From the human T2T-CHM13v2.0 reference genome, Homo sapiens: 64,000 nt of DNA. The stretch is taken from NCBI RefSeq assembly GCF_009914755.1, contig NC_060937.1. One strand, 5' to 3'. The position numbers were made by a program, and so were the translations under genes. The notes below the pieces were generated by a model, which worked only from the letters and a program-made list of their open reading frames with translations, was not told where the DNA came from and did no database searches. Positions 1 through 48,714 of this stretch are shown piece by piece. Position 1 is the first letter of the stretch, and each line of letters begins with the position of its first letter.

Positions 1-129
1 GAAAAAAATTCTTTACCCAAAGAAGAAATATTTTTACATTTTTATAAGTTATCTGTTATTCATATTGCAACTCTATACTAAGCACTGGTTTTTCTTAATA
101 TTAATTAGATAACCAGAGTGGTAAAATAG

Positions 130-4415: not shown

Positions 4416-7257
4416 ACTCTGCTACCAAAAACAGAGCTGATATTTTTGAGAAAAAAAAAAAAGAAACTAAAAAGAAGCCATGAAGTGAAGGATCCACCTA
4501 TGTGTCTTCTGGGATGGGTAAGTCAGTCTCCCCAACAACTCCCTCCCACTCAGAACGTAAAGCAGGATTCCCTGCCACAGTTTCCTCCACCTGACAGGTT
4601 TAGGAACAGCTGGGTCCACTAGGGAAAGTAGGAGAACTGATAGAAGTAGCAAAACAGAGACGGTGCCCTGACTCTCCTACTCTGGGCTTGGACAGGTGGT
4701 GTCCATGTTCACTGTGGGTGGGGCTTTGAGTTCTGGAAGTTTACTGTTAGTGCCATTGGTGTTTATTTCTTATTTCAATGTAGAAATGAATGAATGAGTT
4801 CCGCTCTAGCAAAAAGTGCCTGTGATCTGAAATAATTAGTCATCACAATCAGAGAGAATGCTATGTGACTAGTAAATCATACAATTGAGGAATTGCATTT
4901 AAAAATTAGAGTTATCAGGAACACCTAAAAAGCTGTCTATTCAAGTAAGCCCCTGGAGCTTTGATAATTATCAGGAGGCAGAATGTAACCTCCTTGGCTT
5001 ATTCTCGAAGGGATGCTGCCACAATTCGGTAGTAGATTCACATGCCATGAGTTTATAGGGAGTGTGTTGAATTTTGAGGGGCTTTTTCATTTGACATTTA
5101 TACAATTAGCCATGGCTTTGGCTGGGGTGTTAAAAAAGGCAAGTAGGAAATCACCAGAAACAGGAGAACTTACAGATATGTTGCCTTTTTTGGTGTATGT
5201 GGAACATAGTACGAGAAACTCTCATGGGAACTCTGAGGAAGGAAACATACCATGTCTGTCACTAACCAGGGAAAAAAAATGTCACTGGGCCAGTAAGCAT
5301 TAAGCAGAACAATAAGAACTTCCTGGTGCCAAGAGTCAGGACAAATGTGTGAAAGGGAATGAAGGGACATTACCATACTGAGCCTTTCACAGGAAAATGC
5401 TAAATAAACCGAGAGATGCTTGTCAATATTTGGATAAGGAAACATGTCTCAGTCTGATTTTTAAGGCACGCTACAAAAAAAAAAATCTTGAGAAACTTTG
5501 TACTGTATTCACAATATCAACAAAAATAATACACTTGGAGTCTGGGGTGGCCATTCTCATGGTAATGAATGTGTTTCAACAGTGATCTCCTATTGTGAGC
5601 CTTGGAGCTGCATGTCTCCAGGCTCTAGGGAGGCACGGATGGACACCGCCCCCACATTGTGGCCACAGCGTGCCTTTGTGAGCCTCAGCTGTGAGCTTCT
5701 CAAGTCCTCAATGGGCAGGCAGGGCACACTGAATTAGGACCCATTGCTGCTTCATTTATCCACGACACAATTTATAAACAGCAAGTATATTACTTGTTTC
5801 ATGTTTTATTTGTTAGGTCATTTCTAGCAAAAGCTGAGCACATGCACCCACATATAGGGCAGCTGTGCCTCCAGTCAACCCAGTAGGAAGAAAATTGCAA
5901 ACATTGTTGAAATAAAATTGGGTGGATGGTTGCTTTCAAGGAGCACAGCCTCCCACCTGCTTTCCTGAACTAACCGTGGGGAGCAGTTGGTTGCACTCTT
6001 ATCAGTTTTGCTGGTGCTTCTCTCTTCTCCATTTCGACCATGCTTTTAAAAAAGGCATTTGGATCTGGAAGGAAAAATGCAATAATCCAAATCTTTGGCC
6101 TCGGGTTTTGAGAGGTGTCTGTTATACTAGGAATCTAAAAAGGAAAGCAGAGAAATTCAATTGAAAGAAACAAAAAACCAGCTTTCTCCTTTCTCTTTAG
6201 CAATAACAAAGGAAGGAGAGAGAGCAAGAGTGAGAGAAGGAAATAAGACTCTTCTATTTTAACACTTTAGTGTATAATGGCATATGAATAATATCATTTT
6301 TCTGCCATTTATTCAGATGTGAAGGAACTCAGTGAATAATAATAGCTGCTGTCAAAGGTATTTATATTTAAAAGGTCTTTATGTAAAAAAATTTTTTTTT
6401 TTGTCAGGACTGATTTTTCTCTGAGAGGATCCCTCTATCTCCTAGCAACCAATATGGCTATCTTTTTGAATAGCTGCTGCGTGTACAGTGGGTGCATAAC
6501 CTTTATGTGGAAGCATTTGCAAATTTAGCAGTCAGGACTCATATGAATTCAAAGCAAGTTGTGAAACTGATCTCAGACCCAGACTTGTGATAGAAGTCTC
6601 AGGGGGTCTCTTCTGTTGGCAAGACGAAACACATGTGATGGGCACGATCCCCTTCCTGTGTCGACTGCATGTTCTGCAAATGATAAACGGCCCCTTAAAT
6701 AACCTGTTCACAGAACTTTTATCTATTTAAAAAGAAGAAAAACAAGCTAACCTGAGGAAACCCAAAGATTCTGCTTTGCAAATTACCATCCTAATGGAAA
6801 GATTCTATCTCAAGAAAGAAAATGTCTAGAAGTTTATTAAAAAAAATTAAAGAGTAATGGAAACATCTGGAACTCAGTCATCTCTTTTGCTTCTACGTTT
6901 TGATTATTTGTAATATATTAATGTCATTTTCATTCCTTCTAAATCTTACAACAGGGACTTTCTGCATGTTCAAAAAACATTGGCTAAAGTTCCTAATCTC
7001 TCTCTGAGATAAACATTATAATAAACAGATTATAAATAAATAAATTCATAGAATGAGAAGAGATAGAGACAGAAACAGAAACCATTTCTTGTAATTTCTA
7101 GTCTACAAGGCTGTGTTTAGCAGTAGAATATTATCATTAAATTTTTTTTAAAAACAATATTTGTCTCCTGGAGGCATGCACCCTATTAAAATGAGTATAT
7201 GGTTTTAAAAGAAGAACATTTACATAATTTCAAAAGCCTTCAAAAATGAACTCTCTA

Positions 7258-44216: not shown

Positions 44217-45370
44217 TTGATATTTTGCTGTTTGTTTTTTTATATGTCTGATGCCTGTTTTGTTCCTTGATTCCTCCATTACTACCTTTTTTAATGTTAA
44301 GTAGATATTTTGTGTGTACCATTCATTCTTTCTATCATTTTTATTCCATTTTTGAGTTATTTTCTTAGTGGTTTCCTGGGGATGACAATTTATTTCTCAG
44401 TTTATAGCAATCTAGTTCAGATTAATAATTTAATTTCAATTGTATGCAAATGATATCATTACACTATGTAAACACATCAACATAGTTTTATAATTATTGC
44501 TTTAGGCAATTGTCTTTAAAATCATATAGGAGAAAAGAAAAGTTATAAATAAAAATAGATTTATATTGTCTTTTATGTTTACCTATGAGTTACCGTTATT
44601 GATGCTGGTGGTCTTTATTCCTAATGTGGTTTTGAGTTACTGTATAGTGCCCTTTAATTTTATCTTGAAGGATTCCTTTTATTATTTCTTGTAGAGCAGG
44701 TTTCTCCTTCATTTTTGAAAGAGAGTTTTATTGGATACAAAATTCTTGGTCAAAATTATTTTCTTTTTACCACTCTGAATATTTATTACCACTGCTCTGG
44801 CTTCCATAGATTCTGATAATAAACCCTGTTAATCTTATTGAGAATCTTTTATATTTGATGAGTCATTTCTCTTTTGCTGCTTTCAAGTCTTTTTTTGTCT
44901 TTGGCTTTCAAGAGTTGGATTGTTGAAATGATGTGTTCGTGTGTGGATGTCTTTAAATTTATTCTATTGAAGTTTGTTTGCTTCCTGGATGTGTGTATTA
45001 ATGTTTTTCATCAAATATGGGAAATTTTTAGACATTATTTCTTCAAATTATTTTTTCCTGCCCATTTCTTATTCTTTCATTATTCTGGAACTGCCATTAT
45101 GCATATGTTGGTAAGCTTTGTGATGTTGCACAGGTCTGTGAGGCCCTGCTCATTTTTTTATTATTTTTTTCTCTCTGTTCTTGCTCTTCAGACTGGATAG
45201 TCTTATTGACCTATCTTCAAGTTTGCTGATTCTTTCTTCTGCCAGAAATCCACTATTGAGCACTTTAATACGTTTTTCATTATAGTATTGTACTTCCCAG
45301 CTTCAGACTATCTACTTGGTTCATATTTTTTATTTGGTGAGACATCATTACCATAATTTTCTTCAGTTTT

Positions 45371-45674: not shown

Positions 45675-46361
45675 TTTTCTTTAGTTTTGTTAGACATGTT
45701 TTTATTCAGTTATTTGCTCATACTTATAAGTTGACTTCAAATTTTTGTCTAGTAAGTCCAACATCTGGGCTTCCCCAGGGAAGGTTTCTAATGATTGCTT
45801 TTTAAAAAATGTGTATGGGCCATATTTCCTGTTTCTTTGTGTGCCTTCTATATTTGTGTTGAAGACTTGATATTTAAAATAATATAATGTTGCCAATCTG
45901 GAAATTGGAACCCCCCCACCCCAGGGTTTGTTCTTGTTGCTATTTGTTTAGTAACTTTCCTGGGCTAATTCTTTAAAGTCCGTATCCTTTGTCATTTACG
46001 GCCACTGAAGTCTTTGGTTAGTTAGGTTAGTGTCAGCCAATGATTGGATTGAGATTTCCTAAAATGCTTTGAGCCAATAACGATCCCAGCCTTTGCCATG
46101 GGACTCTCTGTGCATGTCGGGGCATGGCTTCAGCACTCCAGGAAGAAGGTCACCACTCTTTGAAAGATTTTACTTTCTGTTTGTGCAGGCTCTCGAGGTC
46201 CTCCAGAGGTGAGATATTAGGGCCTTCTCAGATCTTTCCCAAGCCTGCCCACTGTTCTGCACACGCACATGGCCTTCTTCCTTCCCAGGAATATGCCAGA
46301 GTTTCTCAAAATCTACATACATCTCACTCACCAGGTTTTCCTTTAAGATTCTTCCTCAGAA

Positions 46362-46385
46362 TGATCATGGTATCTCCCCTGGCAG
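46362..46385 (-). pseudogene. U1 snRNA 5' fragment (antisense) fused to L1
   Basis: Reverse complement of 46362-46381 is CAGGGGAGATACCATGATCA, U1 nt 13-32 (20/20). It extends to nt 9 with one mismatch. Confidence 0.75.
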
Positions 46386-46668
46386 CAAACTATCACAAGG
46401 ACAGAAAACCAAACACCACATGTTCTCATTCATAGGTGGGAGTTTAACAATGAGAACACTTGGACGTAGGGCGGGGAACATCACACCCCGGGGCCTGTGG
46501 TGGGCTGGTGGAAAGGGGGAGCAGGGAGGGACAGCATTAGGAGATATACCTAATGTAAATGACGAGTTAATGGGTGCAGCAAACCAACATGGCACATGTA
46601 TACCTATGTAACAAACAATGCACGTTGTGCACATGTACCCTAGAACTTAAAGTATAATTAAAAAAAAA
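46383..46668 (+). mobile_element. 5'-truncated L1PA5/6-like 3' end
   Basis: cagcaaactatcacaaggacagaaaaccaaac...tagaacttaaagtataat plus polyA. TSD aagattcttcctca at 46345-46358 and 46669-46682. Confidence 0.93.
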
Positions 46669-48714
46669 AAGATTCTTCCTCATTTGCCCCAACCATATCA
46701 CTGCTTAGGCAGCCATAATGTAAGGCAATTTCCAGTAACTATTTTCAGGAAATGTTCTGGGGAAGAGACTGCTTGCAGTGAGCTTGTTCTTACTGTCAAA
46801 TAAAGACGAGCCTTGCAAGCCAGTGTTCCCATGGAACTTGTAAATAGATTAAACATGGACAATGCTCTAGAAATGGGGCTTTGGGGATTAACCTCAAACC
46901 CTTTCTGCACTATCTAGCGGCTTGTTTGCTGCTGATTTTTGTGTCTACCATGATTGCAAGGCTGTTAGTTTTCAAGGCTACTGCAGAGTTGGAGAGTAAA
47001 GGATAGATAGAAAGAGAGAAAGTAAAAATGTCACAAAGCACACTGTTTAGCTCACTGTTCAAGATTCAGCTGTCGTTATTAAATAAACATTTCTCAGATT
47101 GTTGCAAGTCTTTGGACAACTTCTACAGTTCTAAAACGCTGACGTGGATCATTTGGTCAGTGTTCTCTTTGCTTTTATAGAGGAGGGGATTTTCAGAGGT
47201 CCTTATTCAGTATTCCTGAAGTGACTCTCCTTTGTCATATTCAATGTGTTCACATTAGCTTGTTTCTACTAACTCACCCCATACATTAGTCCAGTGCTTT
47301 TTATCTTTTCTAAATGCCAAAGCAGCAATAGTGGATCTTTTGTGTTTTGAGTCTATACTGTTGGGACTTGGGGTATAAATCTCCTTGGTAGAGCTTCTTT
47401 GGCAAAGAGTTAAGGAAGGAAAGCAGAAGCCCACTGGAGTGCAAGCAGGTTTTGTCCTTGGCTTCAGCTCTGGAACTCACAGTTTTGGTACCTGATCAGT
47501 TATTAACTTTGGGCAGAAGCCTTGTGGATAATGTGACAGACAGACCGTATTCTTCCTGACACAGCTGTAAGCTCTGTTTGCTGTTTCAGCACCCCGCCAT
47601 CAGACTCCGGAGAGTTCTTCCACATGTGCGTACACAGGGAGAATGGAGCTCATTCGTGTTAAATGACGATATTGTTATCATAATAATCAAAAGACAAATG
47701 AAGGCAAAAGCTATTTAATAATGGGAGTAGATGGCAAAAGAAATTTTCAAAGAATACTGCTCTATTATTTCTACATTTTAGCAATAATATGCAAACCCAT
47801 ATAGTGTTATGCATGGGGATTGAATCTAATTAAATTGTAAAGAGCAATCCTCATGTTGTGTGTTATGTAAGCCGTAAATGACAATCAGAGGTGCCAGGAA
47901 AGCCATTCCCTGTCCCTTTTGCACAAGTTAAAGCATATAATGAGAAAAAACAAAAGAATGAACTGATATATCTGTTTCCAAATTGCTTTTCTAATATATG
48001 ATTTATTGAGGAGTTGAGTATTAGCCTTTTATATCTTGAGACATACTTACAATGGGAGAAATTAATTTGCTTATTTACTATTTTTATCTGTATGTGTGGA
48101 GAAAATAGTTGCATGTTACCAGAGATATGCCAATTTTAATTCAAAATACTGGAGTAAAAATATTAAAAACTAAGTTTTATGTACCATCATTTATGCTTTT
48201 GATAAAATGACTTTTGCCCTGTGGTTCTTTAAAACCTGGAAAACATTTTTCTAAAGTAATTTATGTGTCTTTCTAATTTAAGGTGAACTGTCATATTAAA
48301 AACAGCAACAATGAAAACACCTTGCCAGTACCTTCCAGCTTTCAATTTAGATACTTTTCAAGAACATGAATATGCACTCTTTTCTACACCACCTACTGGG
48401 AGCACCTGCTCTGTGTGTGGCACCTTGCTATTCCAGGCACTGAGAGTGCAATAGCAAGCCAAACTGTTGGTTTCCTCATGGAATTTTAACATATAGGAAG
48501 AAGCAGCAGGGCAAAAAAGTATATTGCAACAGGCTGTGCTCTCTGAGGGCTATTGTTTTGGAAAGACCCAGAAGTAAGCAGGGTACAAAGGGATGAGAAG
48601 AAAATACAGCAGGGTTTTCTACAGGAAAACACCTAAAAACCTAGACAGTTCCATGGGACATGGGAAATTAGGCAGAGATGGAGCAGGCATGTTCCATGGA
48701 ATAATTTATTTTGG

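What the first reader, a model, noticed from the sequence alone, without database searches (positions are those of the whole stretch)
46345..46682. Inverted U1 snRNA / L1 chimeric retro-insertion inside one target-site duplication
Seen: a perfect 14-bp TSD (aagattcttcctca) at an L1-endonuclease-like site (ttt|aaga) brackets 3 unassigned nt (gaa), then tgatcatggtatctcccctg, then a sense L1PA5/6-like 3' end with polyA. The 20-mer is the exact reverse complement of U1 nt 13-32, and the next bases (cag) are shared by antisense U1 and the L1 start, a microhomology junction. Known: snRNA/L1 chimeras are mostly U6 in the same orientation as L1, and 5' inversions arise by twin priming on the L1 RNA itself. 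Inference: the second-strand nick primed reverse transcription internally on a different RNA (U1), i.e. twin priming in trans. This is a rarely described structure, short enough for repeat annotation to miss, and it would be a fossil of U1 association with the L1 RNP.
Basis: partly seen in the sequence, partly recalled or inferred. Interest (0 to 1): 0.8.

Follow-up and report, generated by a model that had tools for sequence, protein, structure and literature searches.

The report
Tiny backwards U1 piece on L1
An old, 5'-truncated L1 insertion carries a 20-24 base backwards copy of U1 spliceosomal RNA at its front end; this is a real but very small example of a kind of snRNA/L1 chimera that has already been described.

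Summary
The exact 14-bp repeat AAGATTCTTCCTCA (46345-58 and 46669-82) brackets one L1-type insertion. It holds a 277-nt sense L1 3' end (46383-46659), an A-tail, and a bottom-strand nick site TCTT/AAAG. Bases 46362-81 are the exact reverse complement of U1 snRNA nt 13-32, and 23 of 24 bases match through nt 9. Against a full-length L1 on both strands this filler scores no better than shuffled sequence.

- A G at 46382 interrupts the claimed "cag" overlap.
- The "unassigned" gaa is assignable. AGAATGAT (46358-65) is the reverse complement of the L1 bases that directly precede the sense L1 start.

Best reading: the top-strand nick primed reverse transcription briefly on the L1 RNA, then jumped through a 4-nt overlap into the apical loop of U1 stem-loop I. 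It copied U1 towards its 5' end and joined the first-strand cDNA.

The kind is known. Doucet et al. 2015 described inverted, 3'-truncated U1/U2/U5/U6-L1 chimeras made by twin priming, and Law & Burns 2026 catalogued more. This locus is absent from the Law & Burns Table S2 and is shorter than the Doucet length cut-off. It is a new small member of a known kind. No orthologous empty site could be checked.

The parts
46341..46348 (-). L1-endonuclease-like first-strand nick site. The bottom strand reads 5'-TCTT/AAAG-3', with the nick between the complements of 46345 and 46344.
   Evidence: Read directly. Resembles the TTTT/A consensus quoted in PMC4476161.
46345..46358 (+). 5' copy of the target-site duplication, AAGATTCTTCCTCA.
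   Evidence: only two copies in the window; 0 of 100 shuffles gave 2 or more.
46358..46365 (-). Inverted L1 micro-segment AGAATGAT, the reverse complement of L1 ...ATCATTCT, the bases that directly precede the sense L1 start. Only 46359-46361 (gaa) is unique to it. 46358 is shared with the TSD and 46362-65 (TGAT) with the U1 tract.
   Evidence: 30 genomic L1 copies read ...CATCATTCT|CAGCAAACT. ATCATTCT lies at offset 0 in 21 of 30 copies, with only 3 other occurrences in 30 x about 1.8 kb.
46362..46381 (-). Antisense U1 snRNA nt 32 to 13, 20/20 identical. It starts inside the apical loop of stem-loop I (loop = nt 28-37).
   Evidence: score 20 against a shuffled maximum of 12; 37 exact places in the genome; reversed-pattern control 0.
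46382..46385 (-). Possible continuation of antisense U1 to nt 9. G at 46382 mismatches U1 nt 12. CAG at 46383-85 is shared with the L1 start and marks the junction microhomology.
   Evidence: the 24-mer differs at one base from U1 genes. (27-mer scores 22 against antisense U1).
46383..46659 (+). Sense, 5'-truncated L1 3' end (277 nt), equal to positions 5745-6025 of a full-length genomic L1.
   Evidence: 19/269 = 7.1% from the majority of 30 L1PA copies.
46660..46668 (+). Short poly(A) tail (9 A, with 2 more shared with the TSD).
46669..46682 (+). 3' copy of the target-site duplication.

Best explanation
This is one L1-mediated target-primed reverse transcription event, old to judge by about 7% divergence.

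Steps shown or directly read:
- ORF2p nicked the bottom strand at TCTT/AAAG.
- First-strand cDNA was made from the L1 poly(A) tail up to ...CAGCAAACT.

Steps inferred:
- After the staggered second nick, 14 bp downstream, the top-strand 3' end ...CCTCA annealed to the same L1 RNA directly upstream of the point the first cDNA had reached.
- It was extended by 3-7 nt (GAA[TGAT]).
- The short nascent cDNA then switched template through the 4-nt overlap TGAT/AUCA onto the single-stranded apical loop of U1 snRNA stem-loop I (nt 29-32).
- Reverse transcription ran down the 5' arm of the stem to nt 13, or to nt 9 if the G at 46382 is a later substitution.
- The two cDNAs were joined at or next to the CAG overlap.

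The result reads: TSD, 3-7 nt of inverted L1, antisense U1 32->13(9), sense L1 3' end, A-tail, TSD. It has no function. It is a molecular fossil of how the 5' end of an L1 insertion was resolved.
For: 1. Single event. An exact 14-bp TSD, an EN-like site and an A-tail are present. The junction 30-mer is unique in the 3.1-Gb assembly.

2. U1 origin. The match is 20/20, and 23/24 when extended. The exact 20-mer occurs at 37 places with a reversed-pattern control of 0. Of the other 36 places, 21 are among the full-length U1 matches and 15 were fetched and carry U1 sequence. Against a 6,040-nt L1 on both strands the 24-nt filler scores 10, against a shuffled mean of 9.8 and maximum of 13.

3. Strand logic (inference). 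U1 RNA is sense, so only the top strand, read 5'->3' from the TSD side, can be its cDNA.

4. Cis start. AGAATGAT at 46358-65 is the reverse complement of the L1 octamer that abuts the first sense L1 base. That octamer sits at offset 0 in 21 of 30 copies and is otherwise near-absent: 3 other hits in 30 x about 1.8 kb. For a fixed register, chance is about 4^-7.

5. Entry point. U1 nt 29-32 lie in the loop of stem-loop I (nt 28-37) in the Rfam consensus structure. The same loop is where 13 isolated 3'-truncated U1 fragments end (nt 32-36), among the 35 U1-bearing loci I fetched.

6. Published precedent for top-strand priming on snRNAs: PMC4476161 section 6 and PMC13174262.

7. Age. 7.1% divergence predicts about 1.7 substitutions in 24 nt, so one mismatch at 46382 is unremarkable.
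Against: - Only three bases (gaa) are unique to the inverted-L1 reading. The other bases of the octamer are also explained by the TSD (A) and by U1 (TGAT).
- I looked at the abutting register because twin priming predicts it. With a tolerance of about +/-100 nt, chance rises to roughly 0.01-0.02.
- None of the 4 comparator inverse snRNA/L1 chimeras shows such a micro-segment: the chr8 U1/L1PA3 locus L049 and three U5/L1 loci, L087-L089. In the three U5 loci the TSD abuts the antisense snRNA directly.
- G at 46382 is explained by neither U1 (C) nor L1 (T).
- No orthologous empty site could be examined, and the right flank has no paralogue.
- The enzyme that did the copying (ORF2p or a repair polymerase) cannot be read from sequence.
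Confidence: 0.5

Rival explanations
1. Direct twin priming in trans, as the first reader and Doucet et al. 2015 propose. The top-strand 3' end primed straight on the U1 stem-loop I loop. The three bases gaa are untemplated or otherwise unexplained extra nucleotides, and their match to inverted L1 is coincidence.
For: - This is the published model for all described inverse snRNA/L1 chimeras.
- The start at nt 32 falls in the same loop as the other U1 truncation points.
- All 4 comparators lack any inverted-L1 piece.
Against: - It needs a 3-nt filler that happens to continue, in exact register, an 8-nt match to the L1 bases abutting the sense segment.
- There is no direct microhomology between the TSD end and U1 at this junction, whereas such complementarity is reported for the published cases.
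Confidence: 0.28
2. The tract is filler captured or copied during end-joining of the L1 5' junction. It would be either a pre-made U1 5' cDNA fragment (the species that also gives the isolated nt 1-32..36 U1 pseudogenes), or a microhomology-primed templated insertion made by a repair polymerase using U1 RNA or RNU1 DNA. That Pol theta makes such insertions is recalled, not looked up. In this reading ORF2p did not extend the top-strand nick.
For: - A short 20-24 nt tract with 3-4-nt overlaps on both sides is what microhomology-mediated joining gives (inference).
- U1 5' cDNAs ending in the same loop clearly existed and integrated: 13 isolated fragments.
Against: - All 13 isolated fragments, and the chr8 chimera, reach or nearly reach U1 nt 1, whereas this tract stops at nt 13/9.
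- The orientation and the abutting inverted-L1 octamer follow naturally from primer extension from the TSD side.
- Nothing in the sequence calls for a free cDNA.
Confidence: 0.17
3. The U1 match is not U1-derived. It would be chance, a mutated inverted L1 segment, or part of the pre-insertion host sequence.
For: - Inverted L1 (AGAATGATGGTTTCC...) shares TGAT, GGT and CC with the tract when gaps are allowed (by eye).
- An old L1-like stretch lies about 1.1 kb upstream.
Against: - The identity is 20/20. There were 0 hits for the reversed control in 3.1 Gb, and 0 of 100 window shuffles gave a hit.
- Against L1 on both strands the score equals the shuffled mean.
- The tract lies inside the TSD, so it is not host sequence.
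Confidence: 0.03

Closest known systems
Inverted, 3'-truncated snRNA/L1 chimeras formed by twin priming (Doucet et al. 2015, Mol Biol Evol, PMC4476161, Fig. 1 and section 6; 7 of their 30 repeat-associated snRNA copies, including one U1/L1)
   Same: - The snRNA piece is antisense to a 5'-truncated L1 and lies at its 5' end, inside one TSD.
- The EN consensus is seen only in the L1 orientation.
- The snRNA is truncated at its 3' side within a single-stranded loop.
- The top-strand priming model is the same.
   Different: - The U1 piece is only 20-24 nt, below their analysis cut-off of more than 25 nt.
- It also lacks U1 nt 1-8/12.
- Three bases (with overlaps, an inverted-L1 octamer) sit between the TSD and the snRNA, instead of direct TSD/snRNA complementarity.
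chr8 U1/L1PA3 chimera of Law & Burns 2026 (PMC13174262, Table S2, U1 sheet: hg38 chr8:69222667-69222710, U1:8-49, antisense). In this assembly it is L049 (G000:C8:69652179-202); I equate the two by position and structure.
   Same: - Antisense U1 5' domain fused to the 5' end of a short sense L1 3' end.
- It is the only other inverse U1/L1 junction among the 35 U1-bearing loci I fetched.
   Different: - There the U1 tract runs to nt 1 and starts further 3' (about nt 33-49).
- The L1 is much younger.
- No inverted-L1 micro-segment is visible.
Antisense U5/L1 chimeras (Law & Burns Table S2, U5:6-46 and 9-40; Doucet sequences 3, 4, 6, 7). Examined here as L087, L088 and L089.
   Same: - Inverse orientation within a 14-18-bp TSD.
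- The snRNA tract starts in a loop and stops a few nt short of the cap (nt 5-9).
   Different: - A different snRNA.
- The TSD end abuts the antisense snRNA directly in 3 of 3.
Classical L1 5' inversion by twin priming (Ostertag & Kazazian 2001, as cited in PMC4476161; the original paper was not read)
   Same: A top-strand primer anneals to the L1 RNA just upstream of where first-strand synthesis ends. The inverted piece here begins exactly at that place.
   Different: The inverted L1 piece is only 3-7 nt before the template changes to U1. Usual inversions are much longer (recalled).
U6/L1 chimeras by template switching or RtcB ligation (PMC4476161; PMC6789731, search listing only)
   Same: An snRNA joined to the 5' end of a truncated L1 within one TSD.
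   Different: In those chimeras U6 is full-length and in the same orientation as L1. Here the snRNA is a fragment and is inverted, so first-strand template switching onto U1 RNA is excluded by strand logic.
Isolated 3'-truncated ('tailless') snRNA pseudogenes (Doucet 2015 Group III; Denison & Weiner 1982 as cited there)
   Same: The same internal initiation zone on U1: 13 isolated fragments in this genome end at nt 32-36 in the stem-loop I loop.
   Different: Those insertions consist of the snRNA piece alone between TSDs and reach nt 1. Here the piece is an appendage of an L1 insertion.

Membership tests
Inverse (twin-priming type) snRNA/L1 chimera (Doucet 2015) | snRNA piece and L1 lie together between one pair of target-site duplications | tested here: met
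   An exact 14-bp TSD at 46345-58 and 46669-82 encloses both.
Inverse (twin-priming type) snRNA/L1 chimera (Doucet 2015) | snRNA in opposite transcriptional orientation to L1, located at the L1 5' end | tested here: met
   U1 nt 13-32 is on the minus strand at 46362-81. L1 is on the plus strand from 46383.
Inverse (twin-priming type) snRNA/L1 chimera (Doucet 2015) | Cleavage site fits the L1 EN consensus when read in the L1 orientation; poly(A) at the L1 end | tested here: met
   Bottom strand reads TCTT/AAAG. The A-run is at 46660-68.
Inverse (twin-priming type) snRNA/L1 chimera (Doucet 2015) | snRNA 3'-truncated within a single-stranded segment | tested here: met
   The tract starts at nt 32. 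The Rfam consensus structure puts nt 28-37 in the apical loop of stem-loop I.
Inverse (twin-priming type) snRNA/L1 chimera (Doucet 2015) | Complementarity between the insertion-site end and the snRNA at the junction | tested here: not met
   Three bases (gaa) separate the TSD from the U1 tract. The 4-nt overlap (TGAT) is between the inverted-L1 octamer and U1, not between the TSD and U1. Doucet report this as supporting evidence rather than as a strict criterion.
Inverse (twin-priming type) snRNA/L1 chimera (Doucet 2015) | Single insertion event shown by an empty orthologous site | not testable with these tools
   No primate genomes are on hand. The search for paralogues of the right flank found only the locus itself.
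Classical L1 5' inversion (twin priming in cis) | An inverted L1 segment, derived from L1 RNA just upstream of the sense segment, lies between the 5' TSD and the sense segment | tested here: inconclusive
   AGAATGAT equals the reverse complement of the abutting L1 octamer. Only 3 nt are unique to it, and the rest of the filler is U1 rather than L1.
U6-type sense snRNA/L1 chimera (first-strand template switch or RNA ligation) | snRNA full-length and in the same orientation as L1 | tested here: not met
   A 20-24-nt fragment, antisense.
Isolated 3'-truncated snRNA pseudogene | snRNA 5' fragment alone between TSDs, with no retrotransposon attached | tested here: not met
   277 nt of L1 plus an A-tail share the TSD.

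The most novel reading that the evidence does not exclude
The junction is tripartite: inverted L1 (3-7 nt), then antisense U1, then sense L1. It would be a fossil of a template jump made during second-strand (twin) priming. The top-strand primer started in cis on the L1 RNA exactly where first-strand synthesis stopped, then hopped by 4-nt microhomology into the U1 stem-loop I loop. If so, cis and trans twin priming are two outcomes of one reaction. Short 'extra nucleotides' at L1 5' junctions, too short for repeat annotation, may often be copies of abundant nuclear RNAs. I saw no description of such a cis-then-trans junction in the two papers read (PMC4476161, PMC13174262) or in the listings of the searches.
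Probability: 0.45. Interest if true: 0.45.

Novelty: new member of a known kind. Interest (0 to 1): 0.3.

Why it matters
In itself it matters little. The locus is intergenic, old and without function.

Its value is as evidence on how L1 insertions are finished. It adds a second inverse U1/L1 junction in the human genome to the single one catalogued. It shows that published catalogues miss events shorter than about 25 nt. One used a length cut-off; the other took RNA-repeat names from RepeatMasker, which I infer would not flag 20 nt. Its first bases suggest a template jump from L1 RNA to U1 during top-strand priming.

If sub-threshold fillers like this are common, a scan of L1 5' junctions against abundant small RNAs would give a larger natural data set on second-strand synthesis, the least understood step of L1 integration.

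Tried and rejected
1. An Rfam scan of 45800-47200 at E<=10 gave no U1 hit, only three chance-level hits. The piece is too short for a covariance model, so U1 was taken from the genome instead.

2. Inverted or sense L1 as the source of the 20-mer is rejected. The score of 10 equals the shuffled mean.

3. A U1 variant with C at nt 12 as the source of the G at 46382. Only four degenerate chrY U1 pseudogene copies carry it (84-89% identity to U1). There is no evidence of an expressed variant, so this was dropped in favour of a later substitution or an untemplated base.

4. A pseudo-empty site from paralogues of the flank. The right flank (46669-46960) matches only itself.

5. Four L1 copies fetched as possible full-length references turned out to be about 0.4-2 kb fragments. 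They were replaced by copies found through the ORF1 Pfam family.

6. A search for further tiny antisense U1 pieces. The 16-mer gave 46 places, 3 of them new. Two are ordinary 3'-truncated U1 fragments. One (L085) is a 17-nt match with no L1 beside it, which may be chance.

7. A test of whether inverted-L1 micro-segments recur in other inverse snRNA/L1 chimeras. The answer was 0 of 4. The chrX U5 case and the U2 cases of Law & Burns were not located.

9. The supplementary table of PMC4476161 could not be searched fully. Files 1 and 2 were unreadable, so I cannot say whether their U1/L1 case is the chr8 locus.

10. The L1 subfamily (L1PA5/6) and the host 'L1M' were not determined. The only relevant result is a 60%-identical old L1-like stretch at 44701-45239 on the minus strand.
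Full report
**What is in the sequence.** The stretch 46340-46700 reads as follows:
- ...ccttt, then AAGATTCTTCCTCA (46345-58).
- gaa (46359-61).
- TGATCATGGTATCTCCCCTG (46362-81).
- G (46382).
- CAGCAAACTATCACAAGG... running to ...AAAGTATAATT (46383-46659).
- An A-run (46660-68).
- AAGATTCTTCCTCA again (46669-82), then tttgcccc.

The 14-mer occurs only at these two places in the 64-kb window, and 0 of 100 shuffles gave two hits. On the bottom strand the site reads 5'-TCTT/AAAG-3', close to the L1 endonuclease consensus. The stretch from 46383 aligns in sense to positions 5745-6025 of a 6,040-nt L1 taken from the same assembly. It also aligns to 30 genomic L1PA copies. This is an ordinary 5'-truncated L1 insertion, with 24 extra bases between the 5' TSD and the L1.

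**The extra bases are U1.** I took U1 from the genome itself. The Rfam U1 model found 42 matches. One gene copy (L004 1501-1664, 175 bits) was read.

- Bases 46362-81 are the exact reverse complement of U1 nt 13-32.
- Extended to 46385, the match to antisense nt 32-9 is 23 of 24. The mismatch is G at 46382, where antisense U1 has C.
- In local alignments the 24-nt filler scores 20 against antisense U1, and the 27-mer scores 22. 300 shuffled fillers gave a mean of 7.0 and a maximum of 12.
- Against the full-length L1 on both strands it scores 10, where shuffles gave a mean of 9.8 and a maximum of 13.
- In the whole 3.1-Gb assembly the exact 20-mer occurs at 37 places, and the reversed-pattern control at 0. 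Of the other 36, 21 are among the full-length U1 matches and 15 were fetched and carry U1 sequence.
- The 30-mer spanning the U1/L1 junction is unique.

**The "unassigned" gaa.** All 30 L1PA copies that share the window's first 46 L1 bases read ...GGAAACCATCATTCT|CAGCAAACT, with occasional substitutions. The reverse complement of ATCATTCT is AGAATGAT, which is exactly window 46358-46365. That octamer consists of the last TSD base, gaa, and the first four bases of the U1 tract.

In the roughly 1.8 kb of L1 held for each of the 30 copies, ATCATTCT sits at offset 0 from the junction in 21 copies and occurs only 3 times elsewhere. Its reverse complement occurs once.

The filler therefore begins with the inverted L1 bases that directly abut the first sense L1 base. 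That is the register classical twin priming predicts. Only three bases are unique to this reading. For the fixed register, chance is about 4^-7. With a tolerance of about +/-100 nt it is roughly 0.01-0.02 (my arithmetic).

**Where U1 was entered.** The Rfam consensus structure puts nt 1-11 single-stranded, nt 12-15 in the central helix, nt 16-27 in the 5' arm of stem-loop I, and nt 28-37 in its apical loop. The U1 tract starts at nt 32, and the TGAT/AUCA overlap (nt 29-32) lies wholly in that loop.

The same loop is a recurrent end point of U1 retro-copies in this genome. I fetched 35 U1-bearing loci that were not among the full-length matches (classified). Thirteen are isolated 5' fragments ending at nt 32-36. 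Several of these are flanked directly by 9-14-bp repeats (L046, L051, L052, L054, L062, L065, L083). Only one, L049 on chr8, is an antisense U1 piece fused to the 5' end of a sense L1.

**Strand logic (inference).** U1 RNA is sense, and its cDNA is antisense. The antisense tract is on the top strand and runs 5'->3' from the TSD side. If U1 RNA was the template, the tract was made by extending a top-strand 3' end, that is, from the second nick. First-strand template switching, the route to U6/L1 chimeras, would have given sense U1.

**What is known.** Doucet et al. 2015 (PMC4476161; sections 6 and 8 read in full, other passages by search):
- They describe U5, U1, U2 and one U6 piece that are 3'-truncated, inverted relative to L1 and inside one TSD.
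- The EN consensus is visible only in the L1 orientation, and truncations fall in single-stranded loops.
- They draw the model of the snRNA being recruited at the top-strand nick (twin priming). This accounts for 7 of their 30 repeat-associated copies.
- They analysed only copies longer than 25 nt.

Law & Burns 2026 (PMC13174262; passages, Table S3 part 1, Table S2 part 2 and searches):
- They catalogue 253 chimeras of known types.
- They note that 5S and tRNA pieces are mostly truncated and antisense, and attribute antisense pieces to twin priming.
- Their U1 sheet has 4 rows. Three are a duplicated sense U1:3-78/L1PB4 event in the MHC. One is the antisense chr8 case (U1:8-49, L1PA3).
- No chr13 row appeared from the U1 sheet among the chr13 rows shown (first 30 of 60 occurrences, which ran in sheet order from 5S to U6), and the 4 U1 rows are on chr6 and chr8.

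The present locus is thus an uncatalogued, very short member of a described class.

**Comparators.** I examined the chr8 U1/L1PA3 locus (L049) and three antisense U5/L1 loci matching Law & Burns rows (L087, L088, L089).
- In the three U5 loci the TSD (14-18 bp) abuts the antisense snRNA directly.
- In none of the 4 is an inverted-L1 micro-segment visible.
- The snRNA tracts stop at nt 9, 5, 6 and 1. Stopping short of the cap, as here at nt 13 or 9, is not unusual for the class.

The cis-start feature is therefore peculiar to this locus, and it remains an inference.

**Age and the mismatch.** The L1 piece differs at 19 of 269 aligned bases (7.1%) from the column majority of the 30 copies. This is in the middle of the range of those copies, 4.7-11.2%. 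The 30 copies were chosen for identity to the window's first 46 L1 bases, so the set is biased and mixes subfamilies, and the subfamily was not determined. At 7%, about 1.7 substitutions are expected in 24 nt. The G at 46382 may therefore be a later change, in which case U1 was copied to nt 9 and CAG is a 3-nt junction overlap. It may instead be an untemplated base. A U1 variant is unlikely, because only four degenerate chrY pseudogene copies share the base.

**Mechanism and odds.**
- Best reading (0.5): top-strand priming began on the L1 RNA where first-strand synthesis stopped and made 3-7 nt. It then jumped by 4-nt microhomology into the U1 stem-loop I loop and copied U1 to nt 13/9, and the product was joined to the first cDNA.
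- Rival 1 (0.28): direct priming on U1, with three unexplained bases.
- Rival 2 (0.17): a captured U1 cDNA, or a repair-polymerase templated filler.
- Rival 3 (0.03): the tract is not U1.

Shown: the anatomy, the U1 and L1 identities, the loop position, and the rarity of the words. Inferred: the order of events, the enzyme, and the single-event status. The last could not be checked against an empty orthologous site, because no primate genomes are on hand and the flank has no paralogue.

**Verdict.** The small addition here is the inverted-L1 start. It is a new member of a known kind, of modest interest.

Noticed in passing
L045, L046, L050, L051, L052, L054, L062, L063, L064, L065, L076, L083, L084 (positions about 590-635 in each locus): Thirteen isolated U1 5' fragments (nt 1 to 32-36; some 100% identical to U1) all end in the stem-loop I loop. 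Several have 9-14-bp direct repeats immediately on both sides and no A-tail. They fit the known class of 3'-truncated ('tailless') snRNA pseudogenes and show a sharp internal-initiation hot spot on U1.
   Followed up: partly
L040-L043 (G000:C24, four places near 18.7, 19.0, 25.1 and 26.7 Mb): Four degenerate U1 pseudogene copies on the Y chromosome (84-89% identity to U1) share a C at U1 nt 12. They are the only other places in the genome with the window's exact 24-mer, or that 24-mer with one mismatch at a different base.
   Followed up: partly
L085 600-616 (G000:C9:119192331-346): A 17-nt exact match to antisense U1 nt 32-16 with no further U1, no L1 beside it and no obvious repeats. It could be chance (about 0.4 expected genome-wide for a 17-mer, my arithmetic) or another very short U1-derived filler.
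   Followed up: no
window 44701-45239, minus strand: A 60%-identical match to positions 1244-1781 (the ORF1 region) of a young L1, that is, an ancient L1 remnant about 1.1 kb upstream of the insertion.
   Followed up: no
L049 541-640 shown on the reverse strand (chr8 U1/L1PA3 chimera): Upstream of the perfect antisense U1 nt 33-1, the next 16 or so bases resemble U1 nt 34-49 only with a 2-nt insertion and two C-to-T differences. The likely TSD end (AGAAAAA) overlaps the U-rich 3' arm of stem-loop I. The start of that tract therefore looks error-prone or microhomology-primed.
   Followed up: partly
L1 copies L010-L039, the 11 bases GGAAACCATCA upstream of the junction; U1 nt 17-32: By eye, all 11 L1 bases GGAAACCATCA can be laid in order on U1 GGAGATACCATGATCA with three gaps. 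This loose likeness between the two templates might ease a template jump. It was not tested statistically.
   Followed up: no
L088 986-1010 (chr8 U5/L1PA4 chimera): The short L1 piece of this published U5/L1 chimera seems to carry an internal deletion of about 20 nt between two short similar words near its 5' end. This was judged against my recall of the L1 3' end, not against an alignment.
   Followed up: no
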